From an uncultured Myxococcales bacterium (lineage in GTDB: Bacteria > Desulfobacterota > Binatia > UBA1149 > CAYXZP01), in NCBI GenBank assembly GCA_964469485.1, contig CAYXZP010000002.1:1-60655 (forward strand): a DNA stretch of 60,655 bases, read 5' to 3'. Position numbers and translations under genes: made by a program. Of this stretch, positions 20,545-43,411 are shown in pieces. The notes beneath the pieces were generated by a model. It saw nothing but the letters and a program-made list of their open reading frames with translations. It did no database searches and was not told the DNA's origin. Position 1 is the stretch's first letter, and each line of letters starts with the position of its first letter.

Positions 20545-20648
20545 AGGTGACGCTCCGCTGCTATCCTAGGCTTGCTGTCCTCGGCCGGCTACTGGACCAA
20601 GGTCCGAGTTGTACAGCCGGTGCCTGCAAGGTTAGCCTCGAAACTGAC

Positions 20649-22538
20649 ATGAAGGCCCTCACCACGCTGCTGCTCTTACTTGTCTGCCTGGGCTCGCCCG
20701 TGGCCGTCGCGGCCGGCTCGACCGACGTGGCCGCGGCCGATGATCTCTGCCTCTCCACCGACGACCCCTGTATCGTCAACGACACCTATACGGTCTTGGA
20801 CGGCAGTACCCTCGACTTCGGCAGCAGGCAGCTGCGCATCTCCAGCGGCGGTCAACTCGACATAGGCGCGGGCACGGTGACCATACTGTGCGGGGGCTTG
20901 CTCGTCGACAGTACCAATGGTGTGGCCATCAAGGCCAGCGGCGATGATTTCAGCGGCGGCGAGCTTACCGTGCGGGCCAGCCGCACCTGCGAAAACGACG
21001 ACACTCAGACCTGTCTCGAGCACGTCGAATGCACCGGCGACTGCACCGGCGGGGACGGCACCATATCCCTGGGGGCCAAGATCACGGGCAGCAACGAGGA
21101 GATGCCGGCCACAATCACGCTATATGCTGCCGGCGACATCACCATCGACAAGAAGATCACACTTGCCGGGACCACATCCGATTCGGACGGAGGCGAGCTC
21201 GACATCGAATCCTATCTCGGCTCCGTCACCATCAGCGCCGTCATCGACGTGACCTCGGGCGGGGATTCCACCGGCGGCGAGGTCACCATAACCGCCAGCG
21301 ACGATGTCACGGTTGGCAGTGAGATCGACGCGTCGGGGGGGGATTTCGGCGGCGGCGAGGTCACCATAACGGCGGATGATGATGTGAACATCAGCGCCGA
21401 CATCAACGTCAGTTCGAGCACCGGTGGAGGCGATGGGGGCAGCTTGACGGTGACCGCGGGCGGCGACATATCCATGAGTTCGTCGGGCTCCGGCAACATC
21501 GTTGTCCAGGCCAACGGCAATACATCGAGTGACAATTTTTCCGGAGACGGCGGCTGGCTTACCTTCACGGCAAGCGGCGACATGGCGATTGCGTCGACCG
21601 CTCGCTTGCGTACCAACGGTCCGGCGCCCGACGGGGGCGGGGGCATGGTCGAGCTCACGGCATCGGGCGACATCTCCGTGGCCGGAAGGGTCACTGCGCT
21701 CGGCAAAGGGAATAGCGGTTATGGCGGAGACGTCGACATCGCCGCGCAAGGGTCGATAAGCGTCTTGAGTACCGGCGAGATAGACGCCACGGGCAAGGGT
21801 AGTGCCGGGACCATCGGGCTGCTGGCAACGGGGGCCATAGATTTTGCCGGTGAGGCCGATGCGTCCTCGTCGAGCACCGGGTTGGGCGGCGCCATCAGTC
21901 TGACGGCCGGTACCAGCATAGAGCTTTCCGGCGACCTCCTCGTCGACGGCAGTCCCTCGGGAACCACCAATGGCACCACCGACCTGTCGGCCTGCGATGT
22001 CACGCTGGCTTCGGGTGCGTTGATCGATAACGAGGGCTCCTACGGCAAGAACAGTATAACCGCCGCCGATTCGATCACGGCAGCCTCGGGCTCGGAGGTG
22101 TTCGCAGACAGCAGCAGCGGCACGAACCTGTTCACATACGGTGCCCCCGGCAACACGCCTTCGCTGCTCGGCACCGTAAGCCCCGCCGCTTCGCTGGTGC
22201 TGAGCGACACTCTGATCAGCTGCAGCACCGAGGCGCCCGCCACCACCACAACCACCACAACGACCAGCGAGTCTACGACGACGACTATCAGTTCGGGCGG
22301 GGAGTGCGGGGATGTGACGGGCGATAGCCAAGTAATGGTCGGGGATGCACTCGCCATCCTCAAGGCGGCCGTCGGCATCACGGTAACCATAGTCTGTGAT
22401 GAAGACCAGGTGGGTTATTGCGGGGATGTGACCGGCGACTGCGATATAACGGTCTCCGATGCGCTGGCCATCCTCAAGACGGCGGTCGGCATCACGGTAA
22501 CCATGGACTGCACCGTGACCTGCCCCGCTGGCACCTAA
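20649..22538 (+). CDS. Secreted beta-helix-repeat protein F with a Thr linker and C-terminal dockerin-like pair
   Basis: ATG 20649 gives signal peptide 'MKALTTLLLLLVCLGSPVAVAAG'. About 20 degenerate repeats of the type 'GGEVTITASDDVTVGSEIDASGG'. The N-terminal head is homologous to that of 22947-27059. Confidence 0.85.
   Translation: MKALTTLLLLLVCLGSPVAVAAGSTDVAAADDLCLSTDDPCIVNDTYTVLDGSTLDFGSRQLRISSGGQLDIGAGTVTILCGGLLVDSTNGVAIKASGDDFSGGELTVRASRTCENDDTQTCLEHVECTGDCTGGDGTISLGAKITGSNEEMPATITLYAAGDITIDKKITLAGTTSDSDGGELDIESYLGSVTISAVIDVTSGGDSTGGEVTITASDDVTVGSEIDASGGDFGGGEVTITADDDVNISADINVSSSTGGGDGGSLTVTAGGDISMSSSGSGNIVVQANGNTSSDNFSGDGGWLTFTASGDMAIASTARLRTNGPAPDGGGGMVELTASGDISVAGRVTALGKGNSGYGGDVDIAAQGSISVLSTGEIDATGKGSAGTIGLLATGAIDFAGEADASSSSTGLGGAISLTAGTSIELSGDLLVDGSPSGTTNGTTDLSACDVTLASGALIDNEGSYGKNSITAADSITAASGSEVFADSSSGTNLFTYGAPGNTPSLLGTVSPAASLVLSDTLISCSTEAPATTTTTTTTSESTTTTISSGGECGDVTGDSQVMVGDALAILKAAVGITVTIVCDEDQVGYCGDVTGDCDITVSDALAILKTAVGITVTMDCTVTCPAGT
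22305..22511 (+). other. Two Cys-bracketed dockerin-like repeats (protein F)
   Basis: 'CGDVTGDSQVMVGDALAILKAAVGITVTIVC' (22305-22397) and 'CGDVTGDCDITVSDALAILKTAVGITVTMDC' (22419-22511). Each has an EF-hand-like loop plus a helix, as in dockerin type I. Confidence 0.6.
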
Positions 22539-22946: not shown

Positions 22947-25900
22947 ATGGTAGAACACGTTCGCAGATCGCCGAGCCTGTTGCTCTCGGCGCTGATGTTG
23001 CTGGCCTGGGCGGCGCCCGCGGCGGCAGCCGAGGTCAGCTCAGCCGACGACATATGTGCGGCCAACGCCGACCCCTGCGTCATCGACTCCAACCTGACGG
23101 TTGCGAGCGGCTCGACCCTGGATTTCGGGGCCCGTGACGTCGAGATAACAGGGGCGGGGCGTCTGAGCCCCGACGGAGGTTTGGTCACTCTCCTGTGTGG
23201 GAACCTTTCGGCGACAGGCGGCAGCAAGAAGGTAGCGATCAAGCTCCTGGACGGAGCCTCTCTCACCATTAAGGCCCGGCGCAGCTGTTCGTTCGATGCT
23301 ACCGCCGCCTGTCTGACAGATGACGATTGTGCCGGCTGGACCGTGTGCAACGTCGGAACCGGAAGCATCGACCTCAACGCCAAGGTCGTGGGGCAGCAGG
23401 AATATCCCGGGAGTCTGAGAATGGACGCCGCGGACGACATCACGGTTGGCCAGACCATCAACCTTTCGGGCACCGAACCCGACTCGGACGGTGGCGACCT
23501 GGACCTCACGGCCAAGGCGGGGAACGTGACGGTCAGCGGCGACATAGACCTCACCTCGGGGGGTAACGGGATGGGGGGCGTCATCACCGTTAACGCGGGG
23601 GGCGATTTCGCGGTCTACGACGAGATCGATGCGCGCGGCGGGGACGGCGATGGCGGGTCGATCTACGTGACCGTCGGCGGGGATGTGTTGATAGACGCCG
23701 ATCTCAAGATGAACTCGCGCGCGGGGGCCGGCGACGGCGGCGACATCGACATCACTGCCGACGGCAACGTCGTCGTCGGTGCCGACGACAGCACCGCGGT
23801 GGTCATCGATGGCGACGGGATGGGCCCCACCGATTTTGGCGGCGGTTCGGGCAGCGACGTGGCCCTGCTCGCCGACGGCAACATCGTGGTCGGCAAGAGC
23901 GCGCTCATTCAAACAAACGGAGCCACTCCGGACGGGGATGGCGGCTATATCGATCTGACGGCCGGCGGCGACATCACTCTGGGCGGTACCATCGAGGCCC
24001 GCGCCCGGGGTAGCGAAGGGAGCGGGGGCGAGGTGTGGATGGATGCCGGTGGCGATATCACGATCGAGAGCACCGGCGAGCTTACGACCACAGCCAAGGA
24101 CGACGGAGGCGATATCTGGCTGGAATCAGATGGCGCTCTCGTGCTCGCCGGCGCGGCCACATCCACAGGCGGAAGCGATAGCATGGGCGGCGACATGATG
24201 CTCGACGCCGGCACCGATGCGTCCATAAGCGGGACACTCAAGACCAATGTGGGCGGCAGTATATCTATCGACGTTGGTACCGATGTCTCCATAAGCGGTT
24301 CGCTCGCGAGCAAGAGTTCCGAGCCCGGCGACATCGAGGTCTCGGCCTGCCGGGTCTCCCTGTCGAGCGGCGCGAGCATCGAGGCCAAAGGCGGTGCCGC
24401 CACCAACTTGTTCACGATCGGCGAGAGCATGACGGTCGCAAGCGGAGCCACGGTCAAGGCCAACCAGAACTCGGGCGTGAACAGCATCGTCTATCGTGAC
24501 CAGTACAAGCCGCCTGTCATCGAAGGGAGCGTGACCCCGGCGGCCACCCTCACGGTCAACCCCAGCCTTGCCGGATGCCCGGTATGCGGGAACTCGGAGG
24601 TCGATTACGGCGAGACTTGCGACGATGGCGGTACTGTGGGCGGCGACGGGTGCGCTTCGACCTGCCAGCATGATGCATGCGTCGCCGCTACGTCCGGATA
24701 TCCGACCGTTCCTGTCTGTGATGATGGCGACCCCTGTACCAATGACTCTTGCGGCCGTAGCAGCGGGCAATGCTCCAATCTGATCGACTGCACGATAAGC
24801 GGGTGTTCGTCGCACAGCGACTGTATGGTCCCCACGACGACAACGACAACGACCACGACGACGACCACCACCACCACGGTTGACCCTGGGGGCACTACCA
24901 CCAGCACGACCTCCAGTTCGACGAGCAGTTCGTCGACCACTACAAGCACGACCACCACGACGACCACGACCAGCTCGACCAGCACGACCACCCTACCGCC
25001 CGCCGCGGACGACGAATGTCCGGGCGTGGCGATGGTCGAGTTCTTTGCTGCAAGCGGCGGGGCATGCACGGACGATGACGATTGCGGTCCGGGTAGCTGT
25101 CAGGGCGGGTATTGTCAGACCCAGACACGGCTCGACGCCGGCAGCACAGGCGTCCAGCACGGTGGCGACGTCAACGACCGGAGCACCTTGCATGTCGCCC
25201 TCGACTGCGCCGGGAACTTCCCTTGCGGCGTCTGCGACATAGACGGGATAGACGGCGGGACCGGCGCGAGTTGCCGTTGTGCGGCCGACAACCGCAAGGT
25301 CTGTGACCGTGCGCTCAAGAACGACTACAACGATTGCGGGAACTATAGCGACCGTGCCTGCAACTGCTATCTGGGACCGCCGTTGCCGCTGTCCGCGGGA
25401 AACACACCGGTTTGTGTCGTAAACCGTTTGGCCCGGGACATCTCGGGCACGGTCGATGTCGATCTTGGGCGGGCCGAGGTCGAACTGTCGCTACGGAGCC
25501 GGGTGTTTCTCGGCGCCTCGGTGATCCAGCCATGTGCGTACTGTTCGGGTGACCCGACGGCGGGCGACGGTCTTCGCCAGGGCCTTTGTGTGGGCGGCGA
25601 CAACGACGGGCAGAGTTGCGACGGCGGCGCCGACAACAGCAGCTTCCCTGCTCCCGGGGGAGGGTTCCACAGTCTTGATTGCATGCCGACCGCTGGAAAG
25701 AATGTATCGGGTGAGGGTCTGCGCATAGACCTCACGCACACGACCGGTTCCAGCGAGCTCGGTCACGGTCTCAACTGCGGCTTCCCCTTTATCGGCCACA
25801 CCTGCGCGTGCCGCACCTGCAGCTACGATACGAGCATACCGTGTTCGAGCACGGCCGATTGCAGCGCCGCGTATGCCGGCAGCTGCACCTCGCTCGGAAC

Positions 25901-27059
25901 GGGCATCAACACGGGTCGCAACTCTTGCAGCGGTTCGCAATGCGAGGCCATCGATAGCGGCGGGGTCCTGGCACAGTGCGCGACCGGACCGGATGACAAG
26001 TTCTGCAACGGCATATTGCGCGCCGACGGCGAGGGGTTCCTTGCCTGCACTTCGGCTACGGACTGTTCGGCGGCGACCATCGGCATCGATGCCGGGGACT
26101 GCACCCTCTCGCGCCGCAGACCCTGCTTCCTCGCCACCATCGTGGCCGGCGGCCAAGCGGACCCGTATTTCCCCCTCTTTGGCGCCGCCTTTTGCGTACC
26201 CCCCACTACGAACGCGGGGATCAACGGTGTTGCCGGTCTTCCCGGCCCCGTCCGCACGCTCACCCAGGCGGAACTCGAGCTTCGCTGCGCCAACAGTCCG
26301 AACACGGTCTACCTGCCGGCCCGCGGCGGATGTGCAGGCAGCCTTGTTTCGACCACGACCATACCGGTGACCCCCGTCTCGACCACCATGACGACCCCCG
26401 TCTCGACCACCATGACGACCACCGTCTCGACCACCACGACGCCGGCGACCACCGTGCCCGCAACCACTGCCACCGTGCCGGCTGGCAGCTACGAGCTGAC
26501 CTTCCAGCTTGATGACCCCGTGACCGTCGGGGCGCTCAGTTTCACTATTGGCTACAGCGATGCCGCCGGTGGTTTCGACGGCGAGGGCGACGCGGTCGAG
26601 TGTGCTGTTGCCGACGCGCTGTTGCCGCCCGCGATCGTCGCGTTCAACGACCTCGAGAGCAGCTCAACGCTGACAGTGGGAATTCTCAACACGTCGGGCC
26701 TCGAAGGTCCGGGCGAGCTGGTAACCTGCAGCTTCACGAGCGCAAACGAATCTGTCCTGCAAATCACGGTGACCGATGCTTCGACTCCCGCGGGAGTTGC
26801 GCTGTCGCCCGCACCAACGGTGAGCATGGTCGAGCTATCTGCCGGTCTCTGCGGCGATGTCACGGGCGACAGTTCGATCTCGGTGACCGACGCGCTGATG
26901 ATACTGAAAACCGCCGTTGGGATCAGCGTCGACCTGATCTGTGCTTCCACCAGCGCTCTTTGCGGTGACGTTAACGACGACGGTTCGGTCTCGGTGACCG
27001 ATGCGTTGTTGGTACTGAAAGCCGCCGTTGGTATTTCCGTGACCCTCATTTGCAGTTGA
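22947..27059 (+). CDS. Giant secreted modular protein C (1370 aa): beta-helix repeats, Cys-rich repeat, Thr/Ser linker, module X, cohesin-like domain, dockerin-like pair
   Basis: Signal peptide 'RRSPSLLLSALMLLAWAAPAAAA'. Uninterrupted ORF. Modules are described in separate features. Confidence 0.9.
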   Translation: MVEHVRRSPSLLLSALMLLAWAAPAAAAEVSSADDICAANADPCVIDSNLTVASGSTLDFGARDVEITGAGRLSPDGGLVTLLCGNLSATGGSKKVAIKLLDGASLTIKARRSCSFDATAACLTDDDCAGWTVCNVGTGSIDLNAKVVGQQEYPGSLRMDAADDITVGQTINLSGTEPDSDGGDLDLTAKAGNVTVSGDIDLTSGGNGMGGVITVNAGGDFAVYDEIDARGGDGDGGSIYVTVGGDVLIDADLKMNSRAGAGDGGDIDITADGNVVVGADDSTAVVIDGDGMGPTDFGGGSGSDVALLADGNIVVGKSALIQTNGATPDGDGGYIDLTAGGDITLGGTIEARARGSEGSGGEVWMDAGGDITIESTGELTTTAKDDGGDIWLESDGALVLAGAATSTGGSDSMGGDMMLDAGTDASISGTLKTNVGGSISIDVGTDVSISGSLASKSSEPGDIEVSACRVSLSSGASIEAKGGAATNLFTIGESMTVASGATVKANQNSGVNSIVYRDQYKPPVIEGSVTPAATLTVNPSLAGCPVCGNSEVDYGETCDDGGTVGGDGCASTCQHDACVAATSGYPTVPVCDDGDPCTNDSCGRSSGQCSNLIDCTISGCSSHSDCMVPTTTTTTTTTTTTTTTVDPGGTTTSTTSSSTSSSSTTTSTTTTTTTTSSTSTTTLPPAADDECPGVAMVEFFAASGGACTDDDDCGPGSCQGGYCQTQTRLDAGSTGVQHGGDVNDRSTLHVALDCAGNFPCGVCDIDGIDGGTGASCRCAADNRKVCDRALKNDYNDCGNYSDRACNCYLGPPLPLSAGNTPVCVVNRLARDISGTVDVDLGRAEVELSLRSRVFLGASVIQPCAYCSGDPTAGDGLRQGLCVGGDNDGQSCDGGADNSSFPAPGGGFHSLDCMPTAGKNVSGEGLRIDLTHTTGSSELGHGLNCGFPFIGHTCACRTCSYDTSIPCSSTADCSAAYAGSCTSLGTGINTGRNSCSGSQCEAIDSGGVLAQCATGPDDKFCNGILRADGEGFLACTSATDCSAATIGIDAGDCTLSRRRPCFLATIVAGGQADPYFPLFGAAFCVPPTTNAGINGVAGLPGPVRTLTQAELELRCANSPNTVYLPARGGCAGSLVSTTTIPVTPVSTTMTTPVSTTMTTTVSTTTTPATTVPATTATVPAGSYELTFQLDDPVTVGALSFTIGYSDAAGGFDGEGDAVECAVADALLPPAIVAFNDLESSSTLTVGILNTSGLEGPGELVTCSFTSANESVLQITVTDASTPAGVALSPAPTVSMVELSAGLCGDVTGDSSISVTDALMILKTAVGISVDLICASTSALCGDVNDDGSVSVTDALLVLKAAVGISVTLICS
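24834..24993 (+). repeat. Low-complexity Thr/Ser linker coding tract (ACS/AGC/TCG codon runs)
   Basis: Encodes 'TTTTTTTTTTTTTTTVDPGGTTTSTTSSSTSSSSTTTSTTTTTTTTSSTSTTT'. Confidence 0.9.
25014..26335 (+). other. Unassigned large Cys-dense module X, copy in protein C
   Basis: Aligns block by block with 30681-31934 and 41927-43408, e.g. 'CNCYLGPPLPLSAGNTPVCVVNRLARDISGT', 'LDCMPTAGKNVSGEGLRIDL', 'FCVPPTTNAGINGVAGLPGP'. Confidence 0.75.
26373..26444 (+). repeat. 24-nt tandem repeat x3 (PVSTTMTT units) in the second linker of protein C
   Basis: cccgtctcgaccaccatgacgacc occurs at 26373-26396 and is identical at 26397-26420. A diverged third copy is at 26421-26444. Confidence 0.9.
26478..26846 (+). 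other. Cohesin-like beta-sandwich module (tentative), protein C
   Basis: 'YELTFQLDDPVTVGALSFTIGYSDAAGGFDG...ELVTCSFTS...VSMVEL'. Resembles the module at 41107-41500 ('LVLFTCLTVVG...VSMEVL'). Confidence 0.4.
26850..27053 (+). other. Two Cys-bracketed dockerin-like repeats (protein C)
   Basis: 'CGDVTGDSSISVTDALMILKTAVGISVDLIC' (26850-26942) and 'CGDVNDDGSVSVTDALLVLKAAVGISVTLIC' (26961-27053). The second has the full D-x-N-x-D-G...D calcium loop. Confidence 0.65.
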
Positions 27060-27648: not shown

Positions 27649-28692
27649 CTAGCGCTGCCGGTACTGCGAGGCGGTCACGCCGGTCCAGCGTTTAAAGGCC
27701 CGCCGGAAACTGGCCGGGTTCTCGTAGCCGCACAGGTAGGCTGCGTCCTCGATAGTGATCTCCGGCCGCCTGAACAGGTCGCGGGCCAACTCCAGGCGGG
27801 TCTCATCTACGAGCTGTTGGTAACTGCTGCCGGCGGCGGCCAGCCTCCGTTTCATGCCGCTTGCACTCATGGCGAGCCGGCGGGCGACCTCGTTGAGGCT
27901 GAGCGGTTTGCCGGGCCGCCGGACTATCACGGCGCGCACCTTGTCGAGGAAGTTTTCCTCGTCGTAGCGGCGCGCGGCCACGATCTCCTCGCATTGTTCG
28001 GCCAGGAGCCGCTCGGCCGCCGGGTCTGCGCCGGGGGGGCGGAAGCTGAGGAGTTCGGCCGAGACCAGCAGGGCATTCTCCACGCAGCCGAAGACCACAG
28101 GACAACCGTAGGCTTTCTCGTAGGCCGTGACGTTGGCGGGTCGGTCGATAGCGAAACGGGTCTCCGAGAGGGGGAATCTGCCGTGGGTCGTCGTGCGCAT
28201 GATGCTCACTATCGCCGCCATGGTGAAGTCAACGACGTAACGGTAGACGGCAGGGGAGAACTCGTATGGCGTCGTGGGCAGGAGCTTCACGTCAGTGCCC
28301 TCCCCGGCGTAGTCGAGTTTCATCATCGTTCCCGTCATGGAAAAGTAGCGCACGGCGAAGTCCCTCGAGTTTTGAAGCTGGCTGTTGGTAAGAAGCGCGT
28401 AGCCGAACAGGCCGTACTCGGGAGGGCGCACGGTACGGCCGATCCGGAGGCCGAGATCGGGTTCACCGCTGAGTTCTAGGCAGTTATGGATGAGGCGCAC
28501 ATAGTCGCTCACATACCCCCGGCCCTGGTCGAGTTCCGCGAACTGAAAGTTCACGTCTTTGCATATGTCGTGACAGTCGAAGCCGCGTTCACGCATGCGG
28601 CCGAACAGAATCTTCGCGCTCTCGGGCGCTACCGTATCATCGGTTCGTGCGGCCGGGGTGGCCGGAGTCGAGCGCTGGACGGCGCTGCTCAC
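27649..28692 (-). CDS. AraC-family transcriptional regulator (paralogue 1)
   Basis: C-terminal double HTH ('LNEVARRLAMSASGMKRRL...IEDAAYLCGYENPASFRRAFKRWTGVTASQYR'). GTG 28692 overlaps the upstream paralogue's TGA as GTGA. The listed ATG 28746 would overlap it by 58 nt. Its stop is 3 nt from the tRNA 3' end. Confidence 0.8.
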   Translation of the reverse strand: MSSAVQRSTPATPAARTDDTVAPESAKILFGRMRERGFDCHDICKDVNFQFAELDQGRGYVSDYVRLIHNCLELSGEPDLGLRIGRTVRPPEYGLFGYALLTNSQLQNSRDFAVRYFSMTGTMMKLDYAGEGTDVKLLPTTPYEFSPAVYRYVVDFTMAAIVSIMRTTTHGRFPLSETRFAIDRPANVTAYEKAYGCPVVFGCVENALLVSAELLSFRPPGADPAAERLLAEQCEEIVAARRYDEENFLDKVRAVIVRRPGKPLSLNEVARRLAMSASGMKRRLAAAGSSYQQLVDETRLELARDLFRRPEITIEDAAYLCGYENPASFRRAFKRWTGVTASQYRQR

Positions 28693-29831: not shown

Positions 29832-31937
29832 GTGCGAAGGATTGCACGCAGTTGTGCGCTACTGGGGTTTCTTTCGATGGTCTCGCTGGCCGCTGCGGCC
29901 CCGGCCGCGGCCTGGACCTTTTACGAGGGCAAGTGCCGCGCCGAGATCTCCAAGACCCTGGCCAAGTACAGCTCCACCCAGTTCAAGAACATCGGAAAAT
30001 GTCACCGCCTGCGTAACAGGCGCCAGCTTCCGGAGGCGTGGGACTGCAACGACCCAGCAACCGCCGACCGTGAAGGTAAGGGCGAGCGAGCTGCTATAAG
30101 ACTCCGCAGGGCTATAGGGGGCACTGCCGACCGCTGCCATCACAAGATCAGCGGGGAGTCCTTCGACACCGTCCTGGCCAACTTCACGCGTTGCCCCTCA
30201 CCGGCTGCCGAGACCGATGATGGCGGCGCGACCACGGGCATCGACAGCTTCGCCGAGCTGGCCGACTGCCTACTTGCACTCGGCGACGGTCTAGTCTCGC
30301 AGCTTGGCGGGAGCCTGCTCGGTACGCCAGTGCCGACGGAGGCTCGTCCGGGGGCCCGGCGCTGTCATTGGATGATCGCCAAGATGACAGGGAAATACCT
30401 CAACACCGTGCAGCACGTACGCGGCCGAGCGCAAGCGAAGGCGGATCGCTCGGGGGTGCACGAGGTGTACGGTCAGGTCGGGGCCGACCTTAACCGGAAG
30501 ATCAACAAGGCCGAAGCAAAGCTCGCCGGTGCCATATACAAGAAATGCGGGCGCTTCCCGCTGGAGGACCTCGACGACATCCAGTCCTGCGCCGACGACA
30601 GCGAGGGGCTTGCCGAGTGCGTGGTCGAGATAGCCCGGCGCAGCGGCCGCGGTCTGGCCGCGCTCGGGTTCGAGCTGCCCGAGCACTGCCCTAGCCGGGC
30701 CCTCCTGACGGCGCGGGCCGGAATCGGCGATGAGATCACGGCCACCCGCCTCGACGTCGGCTTCACGGGCCTGGCCCACGGCATGGACATCATGGACGGC
30801 ATTGTAAGCGCGGTTAGCCTCGACTGTGACCCCGACTGCGGCGATTGTGAGGTGAGCCAGGACCCACTCCGAAACCTTCCGACCGGTTTCTGTCGTTGCG
30901 AAGCGAACCCCACGGTTAAGTGCGACGTGATAGCCGGCCCCGACGCCGACGATTGCGGGGGCGGGATGTGCCGCTGCATGTTCGGGCCACCGCTGGCCAT
31001 CGCTGCCGGGGGTGTTCCTGTCTGTGTGGTCAACGAGCTTCAGGGCGACCTGGAGGGAACGGCCGATGCCGGGACCGGGGAGGCCACGGTCTCGGTGGGC
31101 CTGCGCTCGAAGGTGCACCTCGGCATCGCTGGGCTGCAGCCATGTCCCATCTGCGAGGGGGATGGTGTCATCAACGACGGCATGGACGGCGGTGTCTGCA
31201 ATGGAGGGCCGCGCGACGGGCTCCCCTGTGACGCGAACGCCACCGATCTGACCTTCGGCGCCGTCAGCTACGAGTGCCTGCCCGAACCCGGCAGCGGGGT
31301 CACCGGCAGCGGACTGGTGCTGTCGATGACGATGACCAGTGACGTTTCATCATTGCCCTTCGGCACGACCTGCGATGCGCCGGCCGACACGATGCAGTGT
31401 GCCTGCGCGGTATGCTCGGGCGACAGTTCGCTTGCCTGCAACGACGACGAGACATGCAAGGAGGTCGAGGCCGGCGACTGCACGAGCAGCGGGGGCGGCG
31501 CCGTTCGCTTTCCCAACCAGTGCGGTGACGGGGTCTGTCTCGATCAGGGCAACGGCAATGGTGAGTGTGGTGCTGCCGGTCCGGTCGAGAACTACTGCGA
31601 CAACATGCTGCGCGCTAACGGTCGGGGCCTTCTCGCTTGCCAGACCGACGAGGATTGCCTGACTTACGCCTCCCAGTGTCCCGATGGCGACTGCGGGGTC
31701 TGCAGCATCGCCGAACCGCGCGCCTGCTTCCTCGATCCCATTACGGCAAGTGGCGGGGCAACCCCCGATCGCGCCGACATGGTTACGACCTTTTGCGTGC
31801 CGCCGACAGCTAGTGCCGCTGTCAACAGCGTGTTGGGACTTCCGGGCGCGGCTCGCTTCAAGGTGAGTTTCGACGTCGAGGGACAGTGCGCCAACGGCGC
31901 GCCCTTCGATAAGCCCGGCGGCTCCAACTGCATGTAG
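29832..31937 (+). CDS. Secreted cysteine-rich protein E (701 aa): two helical Cys modules plus module X
   Basis: GTG start. Signal peptide 'MRRIARSCALLGFLSMVSLAAAAPAAA'. The N-half has 'CRAEISKTLAKYSSTQFKNIGKC'-type modules and the C-half is module X. Confidence 0.9.
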   Translation: MRRIARSCALLGFLSMVSLAAAAPAAAWTFYEGKCRAEISKTLAKYSSTQFKNIGKCHRLRNRRQLPEAWDCNDPATADREGKGERAAIRLRRAIGGTADRCHHKISGESFDTVLANFTRCPSPAAETDDGGATTGIDSFAELADCLLALGDGLVSQLGGSLLGTPVPTEARPGARRCHWMIAKMTGKYLNTVQHVRGRAQAKADRSGVHEVYGQVGADLNRKINKAEAKLAGAIYKKCGRFPLEDLDDIQSCADDSEGLAECVVEIARRSGRGLAALGFELPEHCPSRALLTARAGIGDEITATRLDVGFTGLAHGMDIMDGIVSAVSLDCDPDCGDCEVSQDPLRNLPTGFCRCEANPTVKCDVIAGPDADDCGGGMCRCMFGPPLAIAAGGVPVCVVNELQGDLEGTADAGTGEATVSVGLRSKVHLGIAGLQPCPICEGDGVINDGMDGGVCNGGPRDGLPCDANATDLTFGAVSYECLPEPGSGVTGSGLVLSMTMTSDVSSLPFGTTCDAPADTMQCACAVCSGDSSLACNDDETCKEVEAGDCTSSGGGAVRFPNQCGDGVCLDQGNGNGECGAAGPVENYCDNMLRANGRGLLACQTDEDCLTYASQCPDGDCGVCSIAEPRACFLDPITASGGATPDRADMVTTFCVPPTASAAVNSVLGLPGAARFKVSFDVEGQCANGAPFDKPGGSNCM
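30681..31934 (+). other. Module X, copy in protein E (36 Cys in about 418 aa by my count)
   Basis: 'CRCMFGPPLAIAAGGVPVCVVNELQGDLEGT', 'QPCPICEGDG', 'FCVPPTASAAVNSVLGLPGA'. Confidence 0.75.
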
Positions 31938-32012
31938 AAAGCCGCTCCGCGGCTTCATCACGCCACCGTTCTACTGCTATGCTCGGCCGGCTATTTCTTG
32001 GACCACTCGAGC

Positions 32013-39309: not shown

Positions 39310-39376
39310 CCAGAAGTCGGGTCAGGTTTGCTCTCGACCTCAGACTAAAGGCGGACCACGGCCGCCTTTGGCGAGG

Positions 39377-42300
39377 ATGGAACGCGTGCGTTTCGCGGTA
39401 GGTACAATATCGCTCACGCTACTTTTGTCGGCGGTCCCGTACGGCCTGCCGACCGCTGCCGTCGCTCAGGCCACAGAGGAACCCGACGCCCCGCTCTCGG
39501 AGTCGGCGTACAGCTGCCAACAGGCCCTCATGCGCGTGTCGCACCGCTACCTGACGCGCAACCTCAAGATCCGTCATAGGTGCCGTGCCAGGGCGTCCGC
39601 GGCGGCCGCCTGCCTGACCGGGCTCGGCGACGACAAGACGGCCAAGGCCATCGCCAAGCTGCGCGAGCGCGTAGATACCGCCGTGCTCCGCAAGTGCCGC
39701 AACGTCAACCTGAACGACCTTTATTTCCCCGGCCCCTGTGACCTGATCACGACCGGCACCTGTCATATCGACCAGTGCACCGACAGCTACCGAGAATGCC
39801 GGGACACGCTCGAGTCCGGAGATGCGGTCGCTCCGCCGGATTGTGCGGCCGGCCAGTGCATCGAGCGCAACATGTACGTGGGGTGCACGACCCACGCCGA
39901 CTGCCGCGGCGAGGCGGGGACCTGCAAGACCCCCGGCCAGGTTTGTGAAGGCGGTCCCTTTGCCGGGCGGACCTGCCAGGCCGACGCCGACTGCGCCAGC
40001 AGCGCCGAGTGTAAAGACAAGACGGTCGGGGTTTTCGATGTTACGGACCTGAGCACCTGTTTCAAAAGCCTGCTCGACACCAACAGCGAGATCCTTCTCG
40101 ACCAAGAGTATCCCGCCGATTCGTCGACCGGGGCCACGGCGAGAGCGCGCCAGGGCAGAAAAGGCAAGACGAAAAAGAAGGGTTGTGTCGAACGCGCGGC
40201 CACGGCCGCTTCCAGGATGGTGTTGCGCGAACTGCGCACGCGTCAACGCTGCCTGTCCGACGAACGCGCACCCGACACCGGTGAAGAGGCTGCCGATGCC
40301 GGTGAGGATACAGCAGAAGAAGCAACCGGCTGTCGCAAGAACGTGGTCCCCTACGGTCCGGGAACGGGCAACACCCGCGCCGATGCTATCATCGTGCAGG
40401 CCTATGTTCGGCTGTTGTTGCTCGTGCCCTCGGTCTGCGAAGATTCGGACCTTGCCGGCAAGACCTACACCAGTTTCGATCCCACGGGAGCCCCCTTCGA
40501 TGTTTACGACCTGCGCCAGTTCCTGTTCGACACCCACCGTTCCCTCAACCGTGACCTATTGAGCGTTGCCTTTCCCCCGAAGCCGGTATGCGGCGACGGC
40601 GAGCTGCAAGGCTGGGTCGAGGAATGCGACGACGGCAACATATTCAGCGACGACACTTGTCTCCCGAACTGCGCGGCCGCGCGTTGCGGTGACGACCAGG
40701 TCTGCTCGCACACGAGTTGCGAGAGCGGGCCTTCGAGCGGGGCCGAAGAATGCGACGACGGCGCATTGAACTCAGACACGGTCTCTGATGCCTGCCGGAC
40801 CGATTGCGCGAGCCCATTTTGTGGCGACGGGGTGGTTGACTCCGGCGCGGGCGAGGCCTGTGACAGCGGGGCCGCCAACTCGGATACGGCTGCGGATGCC
40901 TGTCGTACGACCTGCGCGCTGGCGACCTGCGGAGACGGGGTCGTCGATAGCAGCGAAGCCTGCGACATTGGCCGCCAGTGCCGGGATGCCGACGGGGTGC
41001 CCGGCTCGCTGTGTACGACCGACGACGACTGCGCGGCCGGCCAGACCTGCGAACCCGGCGGCGAGTCCGCGACATGCGATAGCGACTGCACGCTTGCCCT
41101 CGACCGGGCCCCCGCCGAGGTCAGCGTGACGGGCAGCGGCGTATTCAACTCCATTACTCTGACTTGGGACCTCTCCGTGGTCGGCAAGGCGGCGGCCGTT
41201 GTGGCCGAAGATAAGGACGGGAATCCTGTCTGTGCCGTGTCGACCCAACTGGCAGCGCAAGGCTGCTTGTACAGCCTGGGGAACTACCTGTCGGGAAGCG
41301 AGCTTACGGCCACCGTGGACGGCTGTGATATTGCCCTCGATGAGGCGGCGCCCTTAGTTCTGTTCACCTGTCTTACCGTGGTCGGCGAGGCCGGCGCGGA
41401 GCCCGGTGGCGATGTCACCGTGGACGATGTGGTGTGCAGCGAAGACGGCTGTGGCGAGACCGCCGCCGACATCACCGTGAGCATGGAGGTGTTGGAGGCG
41501 GACTCCTGTGGTGACGGCACCGTCAACTACGCACGTGGCGAAGCATGCGACGATGGCAACCTGTCCGACAATGACGCTTGCCTGAGCGATTGCGCGCTCG
41601 CCCATTGCGGCGACGGCCATGTGTGTAGTGACGGTGCCTGTTCACCCGCAGAGGGCGGACCGGGGGAGGAACTCTGCGATGACGGCAACGACGACGAGGA
41701 GGACGGTTGCCTGAGCACCTGCCGTACGGTCGCGTGCGGGAACGGGACGGTGGACCCGGGGGAAGACTGCGATGACGGCAACACGGTCGAAAGCGATGCT
41801 TGCCTCAACAACTGCATGGAGGCCGCTTGCGGTGACGGGATCATTTACGCGGGCGTGGAGGAGTGCGACGGTGAGAGCGTAGGTGACTGTGAGTTCTGTT
41901 CGGACCAATGCCGTTGTTTCATCGGCAGGGGCTGTCCCGGCTCCGGCGAACTGACGCTGTATGCGGGCACCGGTGTTTCCTGCGCCGGCGACCAGGACTG
42001 CTTTGACTTCTATGGCGAGCAGTACCCCGGCTCTTGCAACCCCGAGCTCAGCCGTTGTACGACCAAGACGCTGCTCACCACGGGTTCCACCGGTATCGCC
42101 CACGGTGCCGATCTGACCGACAACATTTCCTTGAAGGGGCGGCTACAGTGCCCGGACGCGGCCCCCTGCGGTGATTGCGCCGTAATCGGGCTGATGGCCG
42201 ATAATCCGGACGAAGGCGAGCAGGGCGGCCGGTATTGTCGCTGCGCCGCCGACAACCGCCAATACTGCGATGTGCCGCTGGACTCCGACCCCGATGCTTG

Positions 42301-43411
42301 CGGAGGCTATGAGGACGATTTCTGCAACTGCTACCTAGGCCCGCCCTTGTCTTTCTCGGCCGGCAACACGCCGGCCTGCGTGGTCAACCGCATTGCCCAA
42401 GACACCAAGGGTACGGCGTGGGTGGACGAGGGCAGGGGCGAGGTCGAGGCGCACCTCCGTTCGGTCGCGCATCTTGGCGAGGGTCTTACCGAACCCTGCC
42501 CGTATTGCGTCGGAGATGTGACGCCTTCTGACGGACTGCGTGACGGTGTCTGCAGGAAGGGGGCCAACCAGGGAGAGACATGCGACGGTTGGGGCGTGAA
42601 CACATCCTTCCCCGGCCCCTATGGCATAGCGACTTCCTGCATCGGGGGTCCCAAGGACGGGGACGGTTGCATGATAGACAGCAATTGCGACGAAGAAGGT
42701 GGCGATGGCCTCGGCGTCTGCGGCAACCCCGTGCCCGCTTACCCGAGTCTCGACTGCATGCCTTCAGCCGGCAAGAACGTCAGCGGAGAGGGTCTGCAGA
42801 TCGATCTCATCCAACGCACCGAACGCGTAGAACTGGCTGCCTCGCTAGCGTGCGGGTTCCCGTTCTTCGGGCATAACTGCCACTGCCGTCAATGCACGGG
42901 AGACAGCACCGTACCCTGCAGCGATGATTCGATGTGTGAGGAGGTCGGAGGGACCTGCAGCAGCCTCGGGAGCGGCACGAACGTCGGACCAAATGGGTGC
43001 GACGGCTACCTGTGCTCGGACGTCGATGGCCAAGGAACAGTAGGTGAGTGCACCACCGGCCCCGACTCTAGGTTCTGTGACGGTATGCTGAAGTCCAGCG
43101 GCGATCCGTTCGTAGCCTGTCAGGCCGATGCCGATTGCTCCATAAGCGTGATCGGCTTCGATGCCGGTTCCTGCACCATGGTCAAGAGGCGCTCATGTTT
43201 TCTCGACCCGATAGTGGCGGTCGGCGAAGCGTCGACCACGGCGCCGCTCGGTGCGGCCATCTTCTGCATACCGCCGACCGGCAATGCCGGCATCAACGGT
43301 GTGGCCGGACTCCCGGGCGTGGGGCGGGCGATGAACCACGCCTCCGGCAAACTGTTTTGCGCCAGCGACCCGGGCAAACGCTATGAGCCGGGCCTGGGCG
43401 GCTGCGACTGA
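39377..43411 (+). CDS. Giant secreted cysteine-rich modular protein D (~1344 aa)
   Basis: Possible starts are TTG 39368 (listed), ATG 39377 and GTG 39386; the GTG has GAGGA 8 nt upstream. Signal 'RFAVGTISLTLLLSAVPYGLPTAAVAQA'. Modules in order: helical Cys modules, 4 Cys-rich repeats, cohesin-like module, 4 Cys-rich repeats, module X. Confidence 0.9.
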   Translation: MERVRFAVGTISLTLLLSAVPYGLPTAAVAQATEEPDAPLSESAYSCQQALMRVSHRYLTRNLKIRHRCRARASAAAACLTGLGDDKTAKAIAKLRERVDTAVLRKCRNVNLNDLYFPGPCDLITTGTCHIDQCTDSYRECRDTLESGDAVAPPDCAAGQCIERNMYVGCTTHADCRGEAGTCKTPGQVCEGGPFAGRTCQADADCASSAECKDKTVGVFDVTDLSTCFKSLLDTNSEILLDQEYPADSSTGATARARQGRKGKTKKKGCVERAATAASRMVLRELRTRQRCLSDERAPDTGEEAADAGEDTAEEATGCRKNVVPYGPGTGNTRADAIIVQAYVRLLLLVPSVCEDSDLAGKTYTSFDPTGAPFDVYDLRQFLFDTHRSLNRDLLSVAFPPKPVCGDGELQGWVEECDDGNIFSDDTCLPNCAAARCGDDQVCSHTSCESGPSSGAEECDDGALNSDTVSDACRTDCASPFCGDGVVDSGAGEACDSGAANSDTAADACRTTCALATCGDGVVDSSEACDIGRQCRDADGVPGSLCTTDDDCAAGQTCEPGGESATCDSDCTLALDRAPAEVSVTGSGVFNSITLTWDLSVVGKAAAVVAEDKDGNPVCAVSTQLAAQGCLYSLGNYLSGSELTATVDGCDIALDEAAPLVLFTCLTVVGEAGAEPGGDVTVDDVVCSEDGCGETAADITVSMEVLEADSCGDGTVNYARGEACDDGNLSDNDACLSDCALAHCGDGHVCSDGACSPAEGGPGEELCDDGNDDEEDGCLSTCRTVACGNGTVDPGEDCDDGNTVESDACLNNCMEAACGDGIIYAGVEECDGESVGDCEFCSDQCRCFIGRGCPGSGELTLYAGTGVSCAGDQDCFDFYGEQYPGSCNPELSRCTTKTLLTTGSTGIAHGADLTDNISLKGRLQCPDAAPCGDCAVIGLMADNPDEGEQGGRYCRCAADNRQYCDVPLDSDPDACGGYEDDFCNCYLGPPLSFSAGNTPACVVNRIAQDTKGTAWVDEGRGEVEAHLRSVAHLGEGLTEPCPYCVGDVTPSDGLRDGVCRKGANQGETCDGWGVNTSFPGPYGIATSCIGGPKDGDGCMIDSNCDEEGGDGLGVCGNPVPAYPSLDCMPSAGKNVSGEGLQIDLIQRTERVELAASLACGFPFFGHNCHCRQCTGDSTVPCSDDSMCEEVGGTCSSLGSGTNVGPNGCDGYLCSDVDGQGTVGECTTGPDSRFCDGMLKSSGDPFVACQADADCSISVIGFDAGSCTMVKRRSCFLDPIVAVGEASTTAPLGAAIFCIPPTGNAGINGVAGLPGVGRAMNHASGKLFCASDPGKRYEPGLGGCD
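40589..40981 (+). repeat. First block of about 4 Myxococcus-type cysteine-rich repeats in protein D
   Basis: 'CGDGELQGWVEECDDGNIFSDDTCLPNC', 'CGDDQV...AEECDDGALNSDTVSDACRTDC', 'CGDGVVDSGAGEACDSGAANSDTAADACRTTC', 'CGDGVVDSSEACD'. Confidence 0.8.
41107..41500 (+). other. Cohesin-like beta-sandwich module (tentative), protein D
   Basis: 'VSVTGSGVFNSITLTWDL...LVLFTCLTVVGEAG...ITVSMEVLE'. Alignable in outline with 26478-26846. Confidence 0.35.
41506..41915 (+). repeat. Second block of about 4 Myxococcus-type cysteine-rich repeats in protein D
   Basis: 'CGDGTVNYARGEACDDGNLSDNDACLSDC', 'CGDGHV...ELCDDGNDDEEDGCLSTC', 'CGNGTVDPGEDCDDGNTVESDACLNNC', 'CGDGIIYAGVEECDG'. Confidence 0.8.
41927..43408 (+). 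other. Module X, copy in protein D (with an internal insertion)
   Basis: 'CNCYLGPPLSFSAGNTPACVVNRIAQDTKGT', 'EPCPYCVGDV', 'LDCMPSAGKNVSGEGLQIDL', 'FCIPPTGNAGINGVAGLPGV'. Extra segment 'IATSCIGGPKDGDGCMIDSNCDEEGGDGLGVCG'. Confidence 0.75.

What the first reader, a model, noticed from the sequence alone, without database searches (positions are those of the whole stretch)
25014..26335. Unassigned Cys-dense module X of about 420-490 aa, conserved in three paralogues
Proteins C (25014-26335), E (30681-31934) and D (41927-43408) share a long colinear module with cysteines at alignable positions. I count 36 Cys in the ~418-aa E copy.

Conserved blocks, given as C / D / E:
- 'CRCAADNRKVCD' / 'CRCAADNRQYCD' / 'CRCEANPTVKCD'
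- 'CNCYLGPPLPLSAGNTPVCVVNRLARDISGT' / 'CNCYLGPPLSFSAGNTPACVVNRIAQDTKGT' / 'CRCMFGPPLAIAAGGVPVCVVNELQGDLEGT'
- 'QPCAYCSGDP' / 'EPCPYCVGDV' / 'QPCPICEGDG'
- 'LDCMPTAGKNVSGEGLRIDL' / 'LDCMPSAGKNVSGEGLQIDL' / 'YECLPEPGSGVTGSGLVLSM'
- 'FCVPPTTNAGINGVAGLPGP' / 'FCIPPTGNAGINGVAGLPGV' / 'FCVPPTASAAVNSVLGLPGA'

I cannot match it to any domain family I know. It is not the short Myxococcus repeat, EGF, or a beta-helix. It is C-terminal in D and E but internal in C, so it behaves as an autonomous module. It is the best candidate here for a genuinely undescribed domain.
Basis: seen in the sequence. Interest (0 to 1): 0.85.

Follow-up and report, generated by a model that had tools for sequence, protein, structure and literature searches.

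The report
Undescribed cysteine-rich exported protein domain
Three secreted proteins in this marine Binatia-like genome share a real 420-490-residue, disulfide-packed domain that matches no described protein family or solved structure, yet belongs to a family of over 1000 sequence clusters that elsewhere sits in a conserved gene cluster with anchoring lipoproteins and a disulfide-forming enzyme.

Summary
Proteins C, D and E each carry one copy of a colinear module, here called X. It has 36-42 Cys, and pairwise BLASTP E-values run from 4e-61 to 2e-127. There are exactly three copies in the window.

X has no hit in Pfam-A or NCBIfam, and no PDB hit by sequence or by profile. An AlphaFold2 model is very confident (pLDDT 96, pTM 0.93) and mostly beta. 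It finds nothing in PDB or BFVD with Foldseek (best E 0.39, TM below 0.16).

X is not private to this window. An exhaustive HMM search finds 1003 clusters at 50% identity. All named sources are uncultured Binatia or "Deltaproteobacteria" MAGs, and all are annotated hypothetical. About 30 Cys are at least 95% conserved, and the Cys count is even in 84 of 92 copies.

X behaves as an autonomous module. It is usually C-terminal but can be internal, N-terminal or tandem. It recurrently carries a dockerin-like module.

In 5 of 5 divergent Binatia loci, dockerin-X genes lie between lipoproteins built of two further unassigned domains (Y and Z). Next come a multi-pass TPR membrane protein, a VKOR-DsbA fusion and an S41 protease. 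Window proteins C and D carry Y and Z fused to X.

Best reading: X is a new exported, disulfide-locked head domain tethered to envelope lipoproteins. Its biochemical activity is unknown.

The parts
25014..26333 (+). Module X, copy in protein C. 440 aa, 38 Cys. Internal position. The conserved core starts at about 25119.
   Evidence: Translation and Cys count. Alignment A1. HMM hit of 771 bits. AF2 model with pLDDT 96.1 and pTM 0.93.
41927..43408 (+). Module X, copy in protein D. 494 aa, 42 Cys. C-terminal. It carries one extra 4-Cys insertion relative to C.
   Evidence: HMM hit of 772.7 bits.
30681..31934 (+). Module X, copy in protein E. 418 aa, 36 Cys. C-terminal. It lacks most of the optional N-terminal knob.
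   Evidence: 637 bits. An independent AF2 model of full-length E gives the same strand pattern, with block-mean pLDDT mostly 85-95 over X.
22947..27059 (+). Gene C (1370 aa). Domain order: signal peptide, Gly-rich beta-helix-like region paralogous to ORF 20472-22538, one DUF4215-like repeat, Thr/Ser linker (24831-24992), X, Thr/Pro-rich linker, Y domain, double dockerin.
26487..26834 (+). Domain Y in protein C. About 116 aa with 2 conserved Cys, unassigned. It is homologous to the repeats of lipoproteins that flank dockerin-X genes in other Binatia genomes.
   Evidence: BLASTP to the L045 lipoprotein, 37% identity, E 7e-19. Y-HMM 127 bits. No Pfam or PDB sequence match.
26853..27056 (+). Dockerin module of protein C: two Ca-loop/helix repeats, each bracketed by Cys.
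   Evidence: Pfam Dockerin_1 scores 32.0 bits against a cut-off of 22.9 when the C-terminal part is scanned alone. It scores 21.9 bits in the whole protein.
39368..43411 (+). Gene D (1347 aa). Domain order: signal peptide, N-terminal Cys-containing helical domain, DUF4215 repeats, Z domain, DUF4215 repeats, X.
41123..41455 (+). Domain Z in protein D. About 110 aa, unassigned. It is homologous to the N-terminal domain of the ~500-aa Y-lipoproteins of the conserved Binatia locus.
   Evidence: hhalign 97% probability, E 1e-10. BLASTP E 8e-6.
29832..31937 (+). Gene E (701 aa). Domain order: signal peptide, ~250-aa all-helical domain with 10 conserved Cys (aa 30-278, window 29919-30665), X. This is the commonest architecture in the family.
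   Evidence: In one search, 102 of 238 N-terminal regions are 260-340 aa long.

Best explanation
Module X is a genuine, autonomous, previously undescribed protein domain. It has about 400 core residues and is mostly beta.

**Fold and chemistry (inferred).** X is exported by a Sec signal peptide. It is stabilised by about 15 core disulfides, or 18-27 when the optional 4-Cys knobs are counted.

**Role in the protein (inferred from architecture, gene order and domain fusions).** X is the conserved head or cargo of a family of modular envelope or secreted proteins of Binatia. The variable partner modules handle placement. These are a dockerin-like pair, a Cys-containing helical domain, DUF4215 spacers, and disintegrin-like repeats. 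X supplies the conserved activity.

**How it is placed (inferred).** The dockerin-like module tethers X to membrane-anchored lipoproteins built of Y and Z domains, in the manner of a cohesin-dockerin pair.

**How it matures (inferred).** Maturation uses a VKOR-DsbA disulfide oxidase. It probably also uses a TMTC-like membrane glycosyltransferase acting on the Thr-rich linkers, and an S41 protease.

**Activity (weakest step).** The molecular activity of X is most likely binding of an extracellular or envelope ligand, possibly Ca-dependent, rather than catalysis. No experiment or homology addresses this.

**Shown versus inferred.** Shown: X exists, is a large family, has no described relatives, has a confidently predicted fold, shows the architectures listed, and has the gene neighbourhood listed. 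Inferred: the disulfides, the tethering, the maturation roles and the binding function.
For: **Reality and family size**
- Three copies in the window, E 4e-61 to 2e-127.
- 1003 clusters at 50% identity with E <= 1e-3, of which 325 are at <= 1e-30.
- A second subfamily with 323 hits.

**No described relative**
- Negative in Pfam, NCBIfam and PDB by sequence or profile.
- Foldseek finds nothing in PDB or BFVD.
- The X profile against a DUF4215 repeat profile gives 0.1% probability.

**A single defined fold**
- AF2 pLDDT 96.1, pTM 0.93.
- The same strand pattern appears in an independent model of E.
- There is no internal repeat.

**Export and disulfides**
- Signal peptides are present on C, D, E and nearly all relatives.
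- 30 Cys columns are at least 95% conserved.
- The Cys count is even in 84 of 92 copies, in steps of 4: 38, 42, 46, 50, 54.
- Cys are lost together in pairs or blocks.
- A VKOR-DsbA fusion lies three to four genes downstream in 5 of 5 loci.

**Autonomous head with variable carriers**
- X is C-terminal in 177 of 194 complete copies, otherwise internal, N-terminal or tandem.
- In the window, the same helical N-terminal domain carries a right-handed beta-helix instead of X in ORF 4010-9037.
- The beta-helix-like plus dockerin frame of C exists without X in ORF 20472-22538.

**Dockerin link**
- Pfam Dockerin_1 is above its cut-off in C.
- The N-terminal segments of 101 relatives match these dockerins at 99.7% probability, E 2e-25.

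**Tethering partners**
- Lipobox lipoproteins made of Y and Z domains flank dockerin-X on both sides in 5 of 5 loci. The X proteins of these loci are only 39-61% identical to the reference.
- Y is fused to X plus dockerin in window protein C.

**Companions are adhesion or anchoring modules, not enzymes**
- DUF4215, dockerin and disintegrin co-occur with X.
- DUF4215 repeats occur in a diatom adhesive-trail protein (bioRxiv 10.1101/2023.03.06.531300).
Against: - No experiment and no homology says what X binds or does.
- Several polar residues are almost invariant: Ser220 99%, Arg88 96%, His49 95%, Asp222 95%, Asp185 93%. This would fit a catalytic or metal site as well as a binding site.
- In cellulosomes, dockerins mostly carry enzymes.
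- Y and Z are not recognisable as cohesins by sequence.
- No dockerin-Y/Z interaction was modelled.
- The conserved locus was found around the sister subfamily and around an E-type gene elsewhere, not in this window. C, D and E here have unrelated neighbours.
- Cell-surface and periplasmic location cannot be told apart.
- Three invariant CxxC motifs leave room for some metal-binding Cys.
- Synteny among members of one phylum can partly reflect shared ancestry rather than function.

Confidence: 0.5

Rival explanations
1. X is a catalytic domain, a new extracellular enzyme such as a hydrolase or lyase. It would be delivered to a lipoprotein scaffold by its dockerin, as cellulosomal enzymes are.
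For: - Near-invariant Ser220, His49, Asp222, Asp52 and Arg88 across 233 copies.
- High overall conservation of loop motifs among deep paralogues.
- X occupies the same architectural slot as a right-handed beta-helix domain (PF13229) in ORF 4010-9037.
- Dockerin-borne modules in cellulosomes are typically enzymes (established knowledge).
- Thr-rich linkers resemble those of secreted glycoside hydrolases.
Against: - No similarity to any enzyme family or fold.
- No nucleophile-type sequence motif around Ser220.
- No substrate-related genes (transporters or catabolic genes) are conserved next to X genes.
- All co-occurring domains are adhesion or anchoring modules.
Confidence: 0.2
2. X is a structural building block of an envelope layer or extracellular matrix (an S-layer-like or coat protein). 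It would have no specific ligand. Dockerin and Y/Z contacts would simply assemble the lattice.
For: - Several paralogues per genome: three in this window, and 5 loci in one MAG.
- Three different X proteins are encoded side by side in the conserved locus.
- Heavy disulfide cross-linking and probable glycosylated linkers.
- Dedicated maturation genes lie nearby.
Against: - No repeat or lattice-type features.
- No evidence on abundance or expression.
- The invariant polar residues in loops are more than a scaffold would need.
Confidence: 0.15
3. Part of the cysteines are metal or redox ligands rather than disulfides. X would then be a metal-binding or electron/thiol-transfer domain.
For: - Three invariant CxxC motifs: C71xxC74, PC174PxC177 and C266xxC269, plus CxC pairs.
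- An orthologous group lies beside a TusA gene.
- A neighbouring paralogous carrier protein (ORF 9354-11201) ends in a CxxCH heme-type motif.
Against: - Sec signal peptides and co-located VKOR-DsbA point to oxidised Cys.
- Cys are lost in pairs and inserted four at a time.
- There is no His next to the CxxC motifs.
- TusA is a cytoplasmic protein, and the adjacency is limited to one orthologous group.
Confidence: 0.07
4. X is only a very divergent or composite form of an already described Cys-rich family (a DUF4215 array, EGF/furin-like, or ADAM cysteine-rich domain) that the searches here missed.
For: - X contains three short 'C-x4-D-C' knobs that weakly resemble each other and the small Myxococcus Cys repeats.
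- X co-occurs with DUF4215 and disintegrin.
- HHpred and AFDB searches could not be run.
Against: - No Pfam or NCBIfam hit even at E <= 1 in 43 proteins.
- The DUF4215 profile against the X profile gives 0.1% probability.
- There is no internal repeat structure.
- The confident single-domain model has long beta strands and no PDB neighbour.
Confidence: 0.05

Closest known systems
Dockerin-borne modules of cellulosome-type assemblies (Pfam Dockerin_1 PF00404 with cohesin PF00963 partners)
   Same: - X proteins carry a bona fide dockerin. It is above the Pfam cut-off in C and matches the N-terminal segments of 101 relatives at 99.7% probability.
- The genes lie next to lipoproteins made of repeated beta-rich ~115-aa domains joined by Thr-rich linkers, as a scaffoldin would be.
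   Different: - The cargo (X) is unrelated to any known cellulosomal enzyme or CBM.
- The putative partner domains (Y, Z) are not detectable as cohesins.
- The dockerin repeats are bracketed by Cys.
- The organisms are uncultured Binatia, not cellulolytic Firmicutes.
- No binding has been shown.
Myxococcus cysteine-rich repeat / DUF4215 (PF13948, TIGR02232) proteins
   Same: - Same proteins and same lineages: secreted, disulfide-rich, modular, function unknown.
- DUF4215 has been seen in an adhesive protein.
   Different: - DUF4215 is a ~45-aa tandem repeat. X is a single ~400-aa non-repetitive globular domain.
- There is no profile similarity.
ADAM / snake-venom metalloproteinase 'disintegrin + cysteine-rich domain' architecture (PF00200, PF08516)
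   Same: Some X proteins combine X with several disintegrin domains that pass the Pfam cut-off. This is again a Cys-dense extracellular adhesion-type architecture.
   Different: - X lies N-terminal to the disintegrins, not after them, and is about three times larger than ADAM_CR.
- There is no Pfam hit to ADAM_CR and no metalloprotease domain.
'Choice-of-anchor' domains of bacterial surface proteins (for example PF20597)
   Same: This is a conceptual analogy only. Both are conserved globular domains of unknown activity found with interchangeable anchoring or sorting modules (for the concept).
   Different: - No sequence relationship.
- X uses dockerin-like and helical carrier domains, not LPXTG, PEP-CTERM or T9SS signals.

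Membership tests
Any Pfam-A family (24,736 models, 2025 copy) | An HMM match over the module at or near the gathering score | tested here: not met
   There is no hit at E <= 1 on the module in C, D or E. No family recurs in 40 relatives at E <= 1. Precomputed Pfam columns show nothing over X in the 240 relatives listed (120 per search).
Any NCBIfam family (release 20.0) | An HMM match over the module | tested here: not met
   Only myxo_disulf_rpt and Myxo_Cys_RPT hit, and both lie outside the module. The sister-subfamily protein has no hit.
DUF4215 / myxo_disulf_rpt (PF13948, TIGR02232) | Tandem ~45-aa 'CGNG...ECDDGN...C' repeats detectable by the family HMM | tested here: not met
   Hits lie at C aa 544-575 and at several places in D upstream of X, never inside X. 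A profile of 11 window repeats against the X profile gives probability 0.1%. X has no internal repeat.
Right-handed beta-helix (PF13229) | Periodic ~22-aa coils, HMM match | tested here: not met
   PF13229 hits only the C-terminus of ORF 4010-9037. The X model has irregular strands of 3-15 residues with no periodicity.
Disintegrin / ADAM cysteine-rich (PF00200, PF08516) | An HMM match inside the module | tested here: not met
   Disintegrin hits in P0359, P0360, P0367 and P0368 start at about residue 526, after X ends at about 540. There are none in the window proteins.
Any solved structure (PDB to April 2026) or BFVD viral model | Fold similarity: Foldseek E < 1e-3 or TM > 0.5 | tested here: not met
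Dockerin type I (PF00404), for the accessory module and not for X | A duplicated Ca-binding loop-helix motif, with an HMM score above 22.9 bits | tested here: met
   The C-terminus of C scores 32.0 bits. P0370 scores 26.7 bits. The N-terminal segments of 101 relatives align to these with 99.7% probability, although each alone is below the cut-off.
Cohesin (PF00963), for the putative partner domains Y and Z and not for X | A cohesin HMM match or a nine-stranded jelly-roll fold, plus dockerin binding | tested here: inconclusive
   There is no Pfam hit at E <= 10 and no PDB sequence hit beyond a chance-level Ig VH match.

The most novel reading that the evidence does not exclude
X has a new protein fold and a new biochemical activity. 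Together with the equally unassigned Y and Z lipoprotein domains, Cys-bracketed dockerins, a TMTC-like glycosyltransferase, a VKOR-DsbA fusion and an S41 protease, it forms a previously unrecognised, Binatia-wide cohesin-dockerin-like envelope assembly. That assembly would be a new kind of bacterial surface machinery in a globally distributed, uncultured phylum.
Probability: 0.25. Interest if true: 0.75.

Novelty: categorically new. Interest (0 to 1): 0.55.

Why it matters
Binatia are a globally distributed, uncultured phylum known only from genomes. The published genomic analysis checked here does not mention this family.

A ~400-residue domain with about 15-19 disulfides, a very confident predicted fold, no neighbour in the PDB and more than 1000 sequence clusters is a sizeable piece of uncharted protein space. 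It deserves a family entry and a structure.

The conserved locus and the domain fusions in this window turn "hypothetical protein" into a testable proposal. The proposal is dockerin-mediated tethering to Y/Z lipoproteins, with dedicated oxidative folding.

If confirmed, it would extend cohesin-dockerin-type assembly to a new phylum and to a new cargo.

The limit is that the function is still unknown, and many unannotated families exist in metagenomes. The finding is therefore solid and novel but not yet mechanistically surprising.

Tried and rejected
**1. Internal duplication of X.** hhalign of the profile against itself and of halves against each other gave only weak ~25-residue similarities among three 'CxxxxDC' knobs, with probability <= 7%. 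Rejected.

**2. X as a degenerate DUF4215 array.** Rejected.

**3. A universal conserved neighbour of window-type X genes.** Flanking ORFs of 44 loci plus the window were clustered. Only orthologue-group-specific synteny was found:
- GGT-BBP2-TusA-X in 6-8 loci
- D-type genes with SPFH genes in 3-4 loci

**4. LolA-like (PF17131) gene after E.** It is also found after P0007-type genes in L001 and L012. It is absent in L003, L010 and L018. In the window it pairs with a convergent MMPL gene. I judged it a weak or coincidental link.

**5. The N-terminal helical domain of E as a clue.** The AF2 model is good, but Foldseek gives only non-significant PhoU-like or designed-bundle matches.

**6. Informative enzyme domains in long relatives.** Pfam on seven proteins of 1100-1600 aa found only DUF4215.

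**7. Y as a recognisable cohesin.** Not detected by sequence.

**8. The TPR protein of the conserved locus as a TMTC/PMT-type glycosyltransferase.** Support is only a sub-threshold DUF1736 hit (E 0.025), eight hydrophobic segments and an 'EFVSDD' loop. There is no PDB or NCBIfam support. I keep it as a lead only.

**9. Literature.** No paper combines Binatia with cysteine-rich proteins. DUF4215 appears in one preprint.

**10. Genome-collection scan with the 92-sequence alignment.** It failed for lack of a conserved word. It was repeated with the 3-sequence alignment.

Full report
**1. The observation**

The window (64-68% G+C) has three long + strand ORFs:
- C: 22947-27059, 1370 aa
- E: 29832-31937, 701 aa
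- D: 39368-43411, 1347 aa

All quoted blocks are present and align in register.

BLASTP E-values are 2e-127 (C-D), 2e-70 (C-E) and 4e-61 (D-E). An HMM of the module finds exactly these three copies in the six-frame translation of the window.

**2. Is it a described domain?**

- Pfam-A at E <= 1 hits only Dockerin_1 and DUF4215 in C and DUF4215 in D, all outside the module. It hits nothing in E.
- NCBIfam hits only the short Myxococcus-type Cys repeats, again outside the module.
- Forty full-length relatives scanned at E <= 1 share no Pfam family.
- The precomputed Pfam columns of the 240 relatives listed (120 per search) show nothing over the module.
- PDB sequences give no hit with a single sequence, a 3-sequence profile or a 92-sequence profile. 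The only matches to the last are chance-level ones to helical proteins, on N-terminal columns.
- A profile of eleven DUF4215 repeats from this window aligns to the X profile with 0.1% probability.
- X has no internal repeat.

**3. Structure**

AlphaFold2 on a 92-sequence alignment gives mean pLDDT 96.1 and pTM 0.93, with no segment below 50. The model is mostly beta: about 30 strands, the longest at residues 57-65, 131-139, 154-166 and 411-425, with only short helices.

An independent model of full-length E, built on 40 other sequences, reproduces the same strand pattern in X at offsets of 261-264 residues. It also shows a separate all-helical N-terminal domain.

From the secondary structure I infer the following layout:
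- a beta core built from the N-terminal third, a hairpin at 236-250 and the C-terminal 60 residues
- two Cys-rich, irregular excursions at 167-235 and 251-362

The coordinates could not be inspected.

Foldseek finds nothing:
- PDB: best E 0.39, TM at most 0.15
- BFVD: best E 0.72
- full-length E against PDB: best E 0.05, on the helical part

No library of predicted cellular structures was available.

**4. The family**

An exhaustive HMMER search of 1.84 billion cluster representatives finds 1003 proteins at E <= 1e-3, 634 at <= 1e-10 and 325 at <= 1e-30. A divergent sister subfamily adds 323 word-indexed hits.

Wherever a source gives a name, it is "hypothetical protein" or "cysteine-rich repeat protein". 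The organisms named are:
- mostly Candidatus Binatia or "Deltaproteobacteria bacterium" MAGs
- a few labelled Limnocylindrales, Dadabacteria, Polyangiaceae or Thermodesulfobacteriota

No listed hit is attributed to UniRef.

Genomes carry several copies, for example five loci in MAG SMAG_U12116. The window sequence itself recurs in marine metagenome assemblies.

**5. Conservation**

In 233 aligned copies, 30 Cys columns are at least 95% Cys. Near-invariant polar residues, in C-module numbering, are:
- Ser220 (99%), Arg88 (96%), His49 (95%), Asp222 (95%), Asp185 (93%)
- Asp52, Asp350 and Asn404 (92% each)
- Asp104 and Asp203 (91% each)

The Cys count per copy is even in 84 of 92. It clusters at 38, 42, 46, 50 and 54, which means insertions bring four Cys at a time.

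The N-terminal knob (Cys 2, 18, 24, 29, 34) is lost as a block. Cys 87, 118, 425 and 440 tend to be lost together, as do Cys 65 and 255.

C, D, E and nearly all relatives have Sec-type signal peptides. Together these points argue for an exported, fully disulfide-bonded domain. That is an inference.

**6. Architecture**

X is within 15 residues of the C-terminus in 177 of 194 complete copies. It is followed by longer tails in 17 and tandemly duplicated in a few: P0122, P0124, P0233 and P0003.

The commonest partner is the ~280-aa helical domain seen in E and at the start of D.

A second large group has an N-terminal pair of 'GDCGQPxSxG...DAL.IL..AVG' motifs. As a profile of 101 sequences, these match the C-terminal dockerins of C, of ORF 20472-22538 and of five relatives with 99.7% probability, E 2e-25. 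The dockerin of C passes the Pfam cut-off at 32.0 versus 22.9 bits.

A third group has X directly after the signal peptide, followed by disintegrin repeats above the Pfam cut-off, a DUF4215 repeat and a C-terminal dockerin.

No enzyme domain was found with X.

Within the window the modules are shuffled:
- ORF 20472-22538 is C without DUF4215, X and Y (39% identity over 527 aa, plus the dockerin).
- ORF 4010-9037 (minus strand) has the E-type helical domain, Cys knobs and DUF4215, but ends in a right-handed beta-helix (PF13229, 31.5 bits against a cut-off of 25.9).
- ORF 9354-11201 has the helical domain and DUF4215 and ends in a CxxCH-containing tail.

X therefore sits in the slot of a terminal functional domain on interchangeable carriers.

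**7. Genomic context**

In the window, the three genes have unrelated neighbours:
- two AraC regulators upstream of E
- a LolA-like/MMPL pair downstream of E
- a sulfatase and a CoA-transferase upstream of D
- SPFH genes, a histidine kinase and a TonB receptor downstream of D

Across 44 fetched loci there is no universal neighbour, only synteny within orthologous groups.

The dockerin-X subfamily is different. Five of five loci were examined, from assemblies whose X proteins are 39-61% identical to the reference. All share this order:
1. an E-type X protein (window-type X, 257-348 bits; cut off by the contig end in L050)
2. a ~1000-aa Cys-rich protein with a divergent X
3. a PDZ protein on the opposite strand
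4. a ~500-aa lipoprotein
5. dockerin-X (duplicated once)
6. a ~400-aa lipoprotein
7. a 600-700-aa protein with eight hydrophobic segments, an 'EFVSDD' loop and C-terminal TPRs (sub-threshold TMTC_DUF1736 hit, E 0.025)
8. a VKOR-DsbA fusion
9. a small GerE-type regulator
10. a PDZ-S41 protease

The lipoproteins have lipoboxes, Thr-rich linkers and repeats of a ~115-aa domain with two conserved Cys, here called Y. The larger lipoprotein also has an N-terminal Cys-containing domain, here called Z. Neither Y nor Z matches Pfam or PDB sequences.

**8. Link back to the window**

Protein C carries one Y domain (window 26487-26834) between X and its dockerin. BLASTP to the L045 lipoprotein gives 37% identity, E 7e-19, and the Y-HMM gives 127 bits.

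Protein D carries one Z domain (41123-41455): hhalign 97% probability, E 1e-10.

So the domains that are separate neighbouring genes elsewhere are fused to X here. This is the classical domain-fusion argument for a functional link. It is an inference.

**9. Interpretation**

Shown:
- X is real and autonomous.
- X is a large family and is exported.
- X has no described sequence or structural relatives.
- X is recurrently combined with dockerin-like modules and encoded beside Y/Z lipoproteins and a VKOR-DsbA fusion.

Inferred:
- The Cys form about 15 core disulfides, made by the VKOR-DsbA system.
- Dockerin-like modules tether X proteins to Y/Z lipoproteins, as dockerins bind cohesins.
- Thr-rich linkers may be glycosylated by the TPR membrane protein.
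- X is the conserved working end.

I favour ligand binding or adhesion for three reasons. All companion modules are adhesion or anchoring types. No catabolic or transport genes are conserved nearby. DUF4215-rich proteins have been found in adhesive material. This step is weak.

**10. Novelty and score**

As a domain family, and probably as a fold, X lies outside everything described in the libraries searched. The system logic (modular secreted proteins, dockerin tethering, Dsb-type oxidation) is familiar.

I rate the domain categorically new and set interest at 0.55. It is a well-supported, sizeable new family with a testable assembly hypothesis in an uncultured phylum. It has no known function, and unannotated metagenomic families are common.

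Noticed in passing
L045-L050 (for example L045 2760-17875; L049 1-17974): A conserved ~18-kb Binatia locus. Its gene order is: E-type X protein, ~1000-aa divergent-X protein, PDZ protein, Y/Z lipoprotein, dockerin-X, Y lipoprotein, multi-pass TPR (TMTC-like?) protein, VKOR-DsbA fusion, GerE regulator, PDZ-S41 protease. It was found in 5 of 5 loci examined.
   Followed up: partly
window 26487-26834 (Y) and 41123-41455 (Z): Two further unassigned domains in C and D. They are homologous to lipoprotein domains of the conserved locus and have no Pfam or PDB sequence match. Y has two conserved Cys and a chance-level resemblance to Ig VH.
   Followed up: partly
window 4010-9037 (-): A 1675-aa secreted protein with 143 Cys. 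Domain order: E-type helical N-terminal domain, many small Cys knobs, DUF4215 repeats, and a C-terminal right-handed beta-helix (PF13229, 31.5 bits). It has no X.
   Followed up: partly
window 9354-11201 (+): A 615-aa, 51-Cys protein with the E-type helical domain (interrupted by Cys knobs) and DUF4215 repeats. Its C-terminal ~110 aa contain 'SCSGCHG' (a CxxCH heme-c type motif). From memory this tail resembles planctomycete PSCyt1 domains. Pfam did not report it at E <= 1e-3.
   Followed up: no
window 20472-22538 (+): A paralogue of the N-terminal 540 aa of C (39% identity): a Gly-rich beta-helix-like region, a Thr linker and a double dockerin. It lacks DUF4215, X and Y, so C looks like this frame with X and Y inserted. 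The beta-helix-like region has no Pfam hit.
   Followed up: partly
window 27649-29720 (-) and 31998-35299: Two tandem AraC-family regulator genes lie upstream of E. One is conserved next to the E orthologue in L027. A LolA-like (PF17131) gene lies just downstream and overlaps a convergent MMPL transporter gene by 4 bp. A LolA-like gene also follows X genes in L001 and L012 but not in other orthologues.
   Followed up: partly
window 25032 and 29877 (public gene calls P0001, P0002): Public gene calls differ from the ORFs read here. P0001 (675 aa) starts at an internal Met inside X of protein C, so the 1370-aa protein is truncated or split in that annotation. P0002 starts E at Met16, which would leave too short a signal peptide. 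The GTG at 29832 gives a normal one.
   Followed up: no
L001, L003, L010, L012, L018, L032: One orthologous group of E-type X genes keeps the order gamma-glutamyltranspeptidase, acetyltransferase, BBP2 porin, TusA (opposite strand), X gene across several Binatia genomes.
   Followed up: partly
window 11510-12793 and 36001-37338: A sulfotransferase (PF13469) and a sulfatase (PF00884) are encoded among the Cys-rich protein genes. A possible link to sulfated glycans or linkers was not examined.
   Followed up: no
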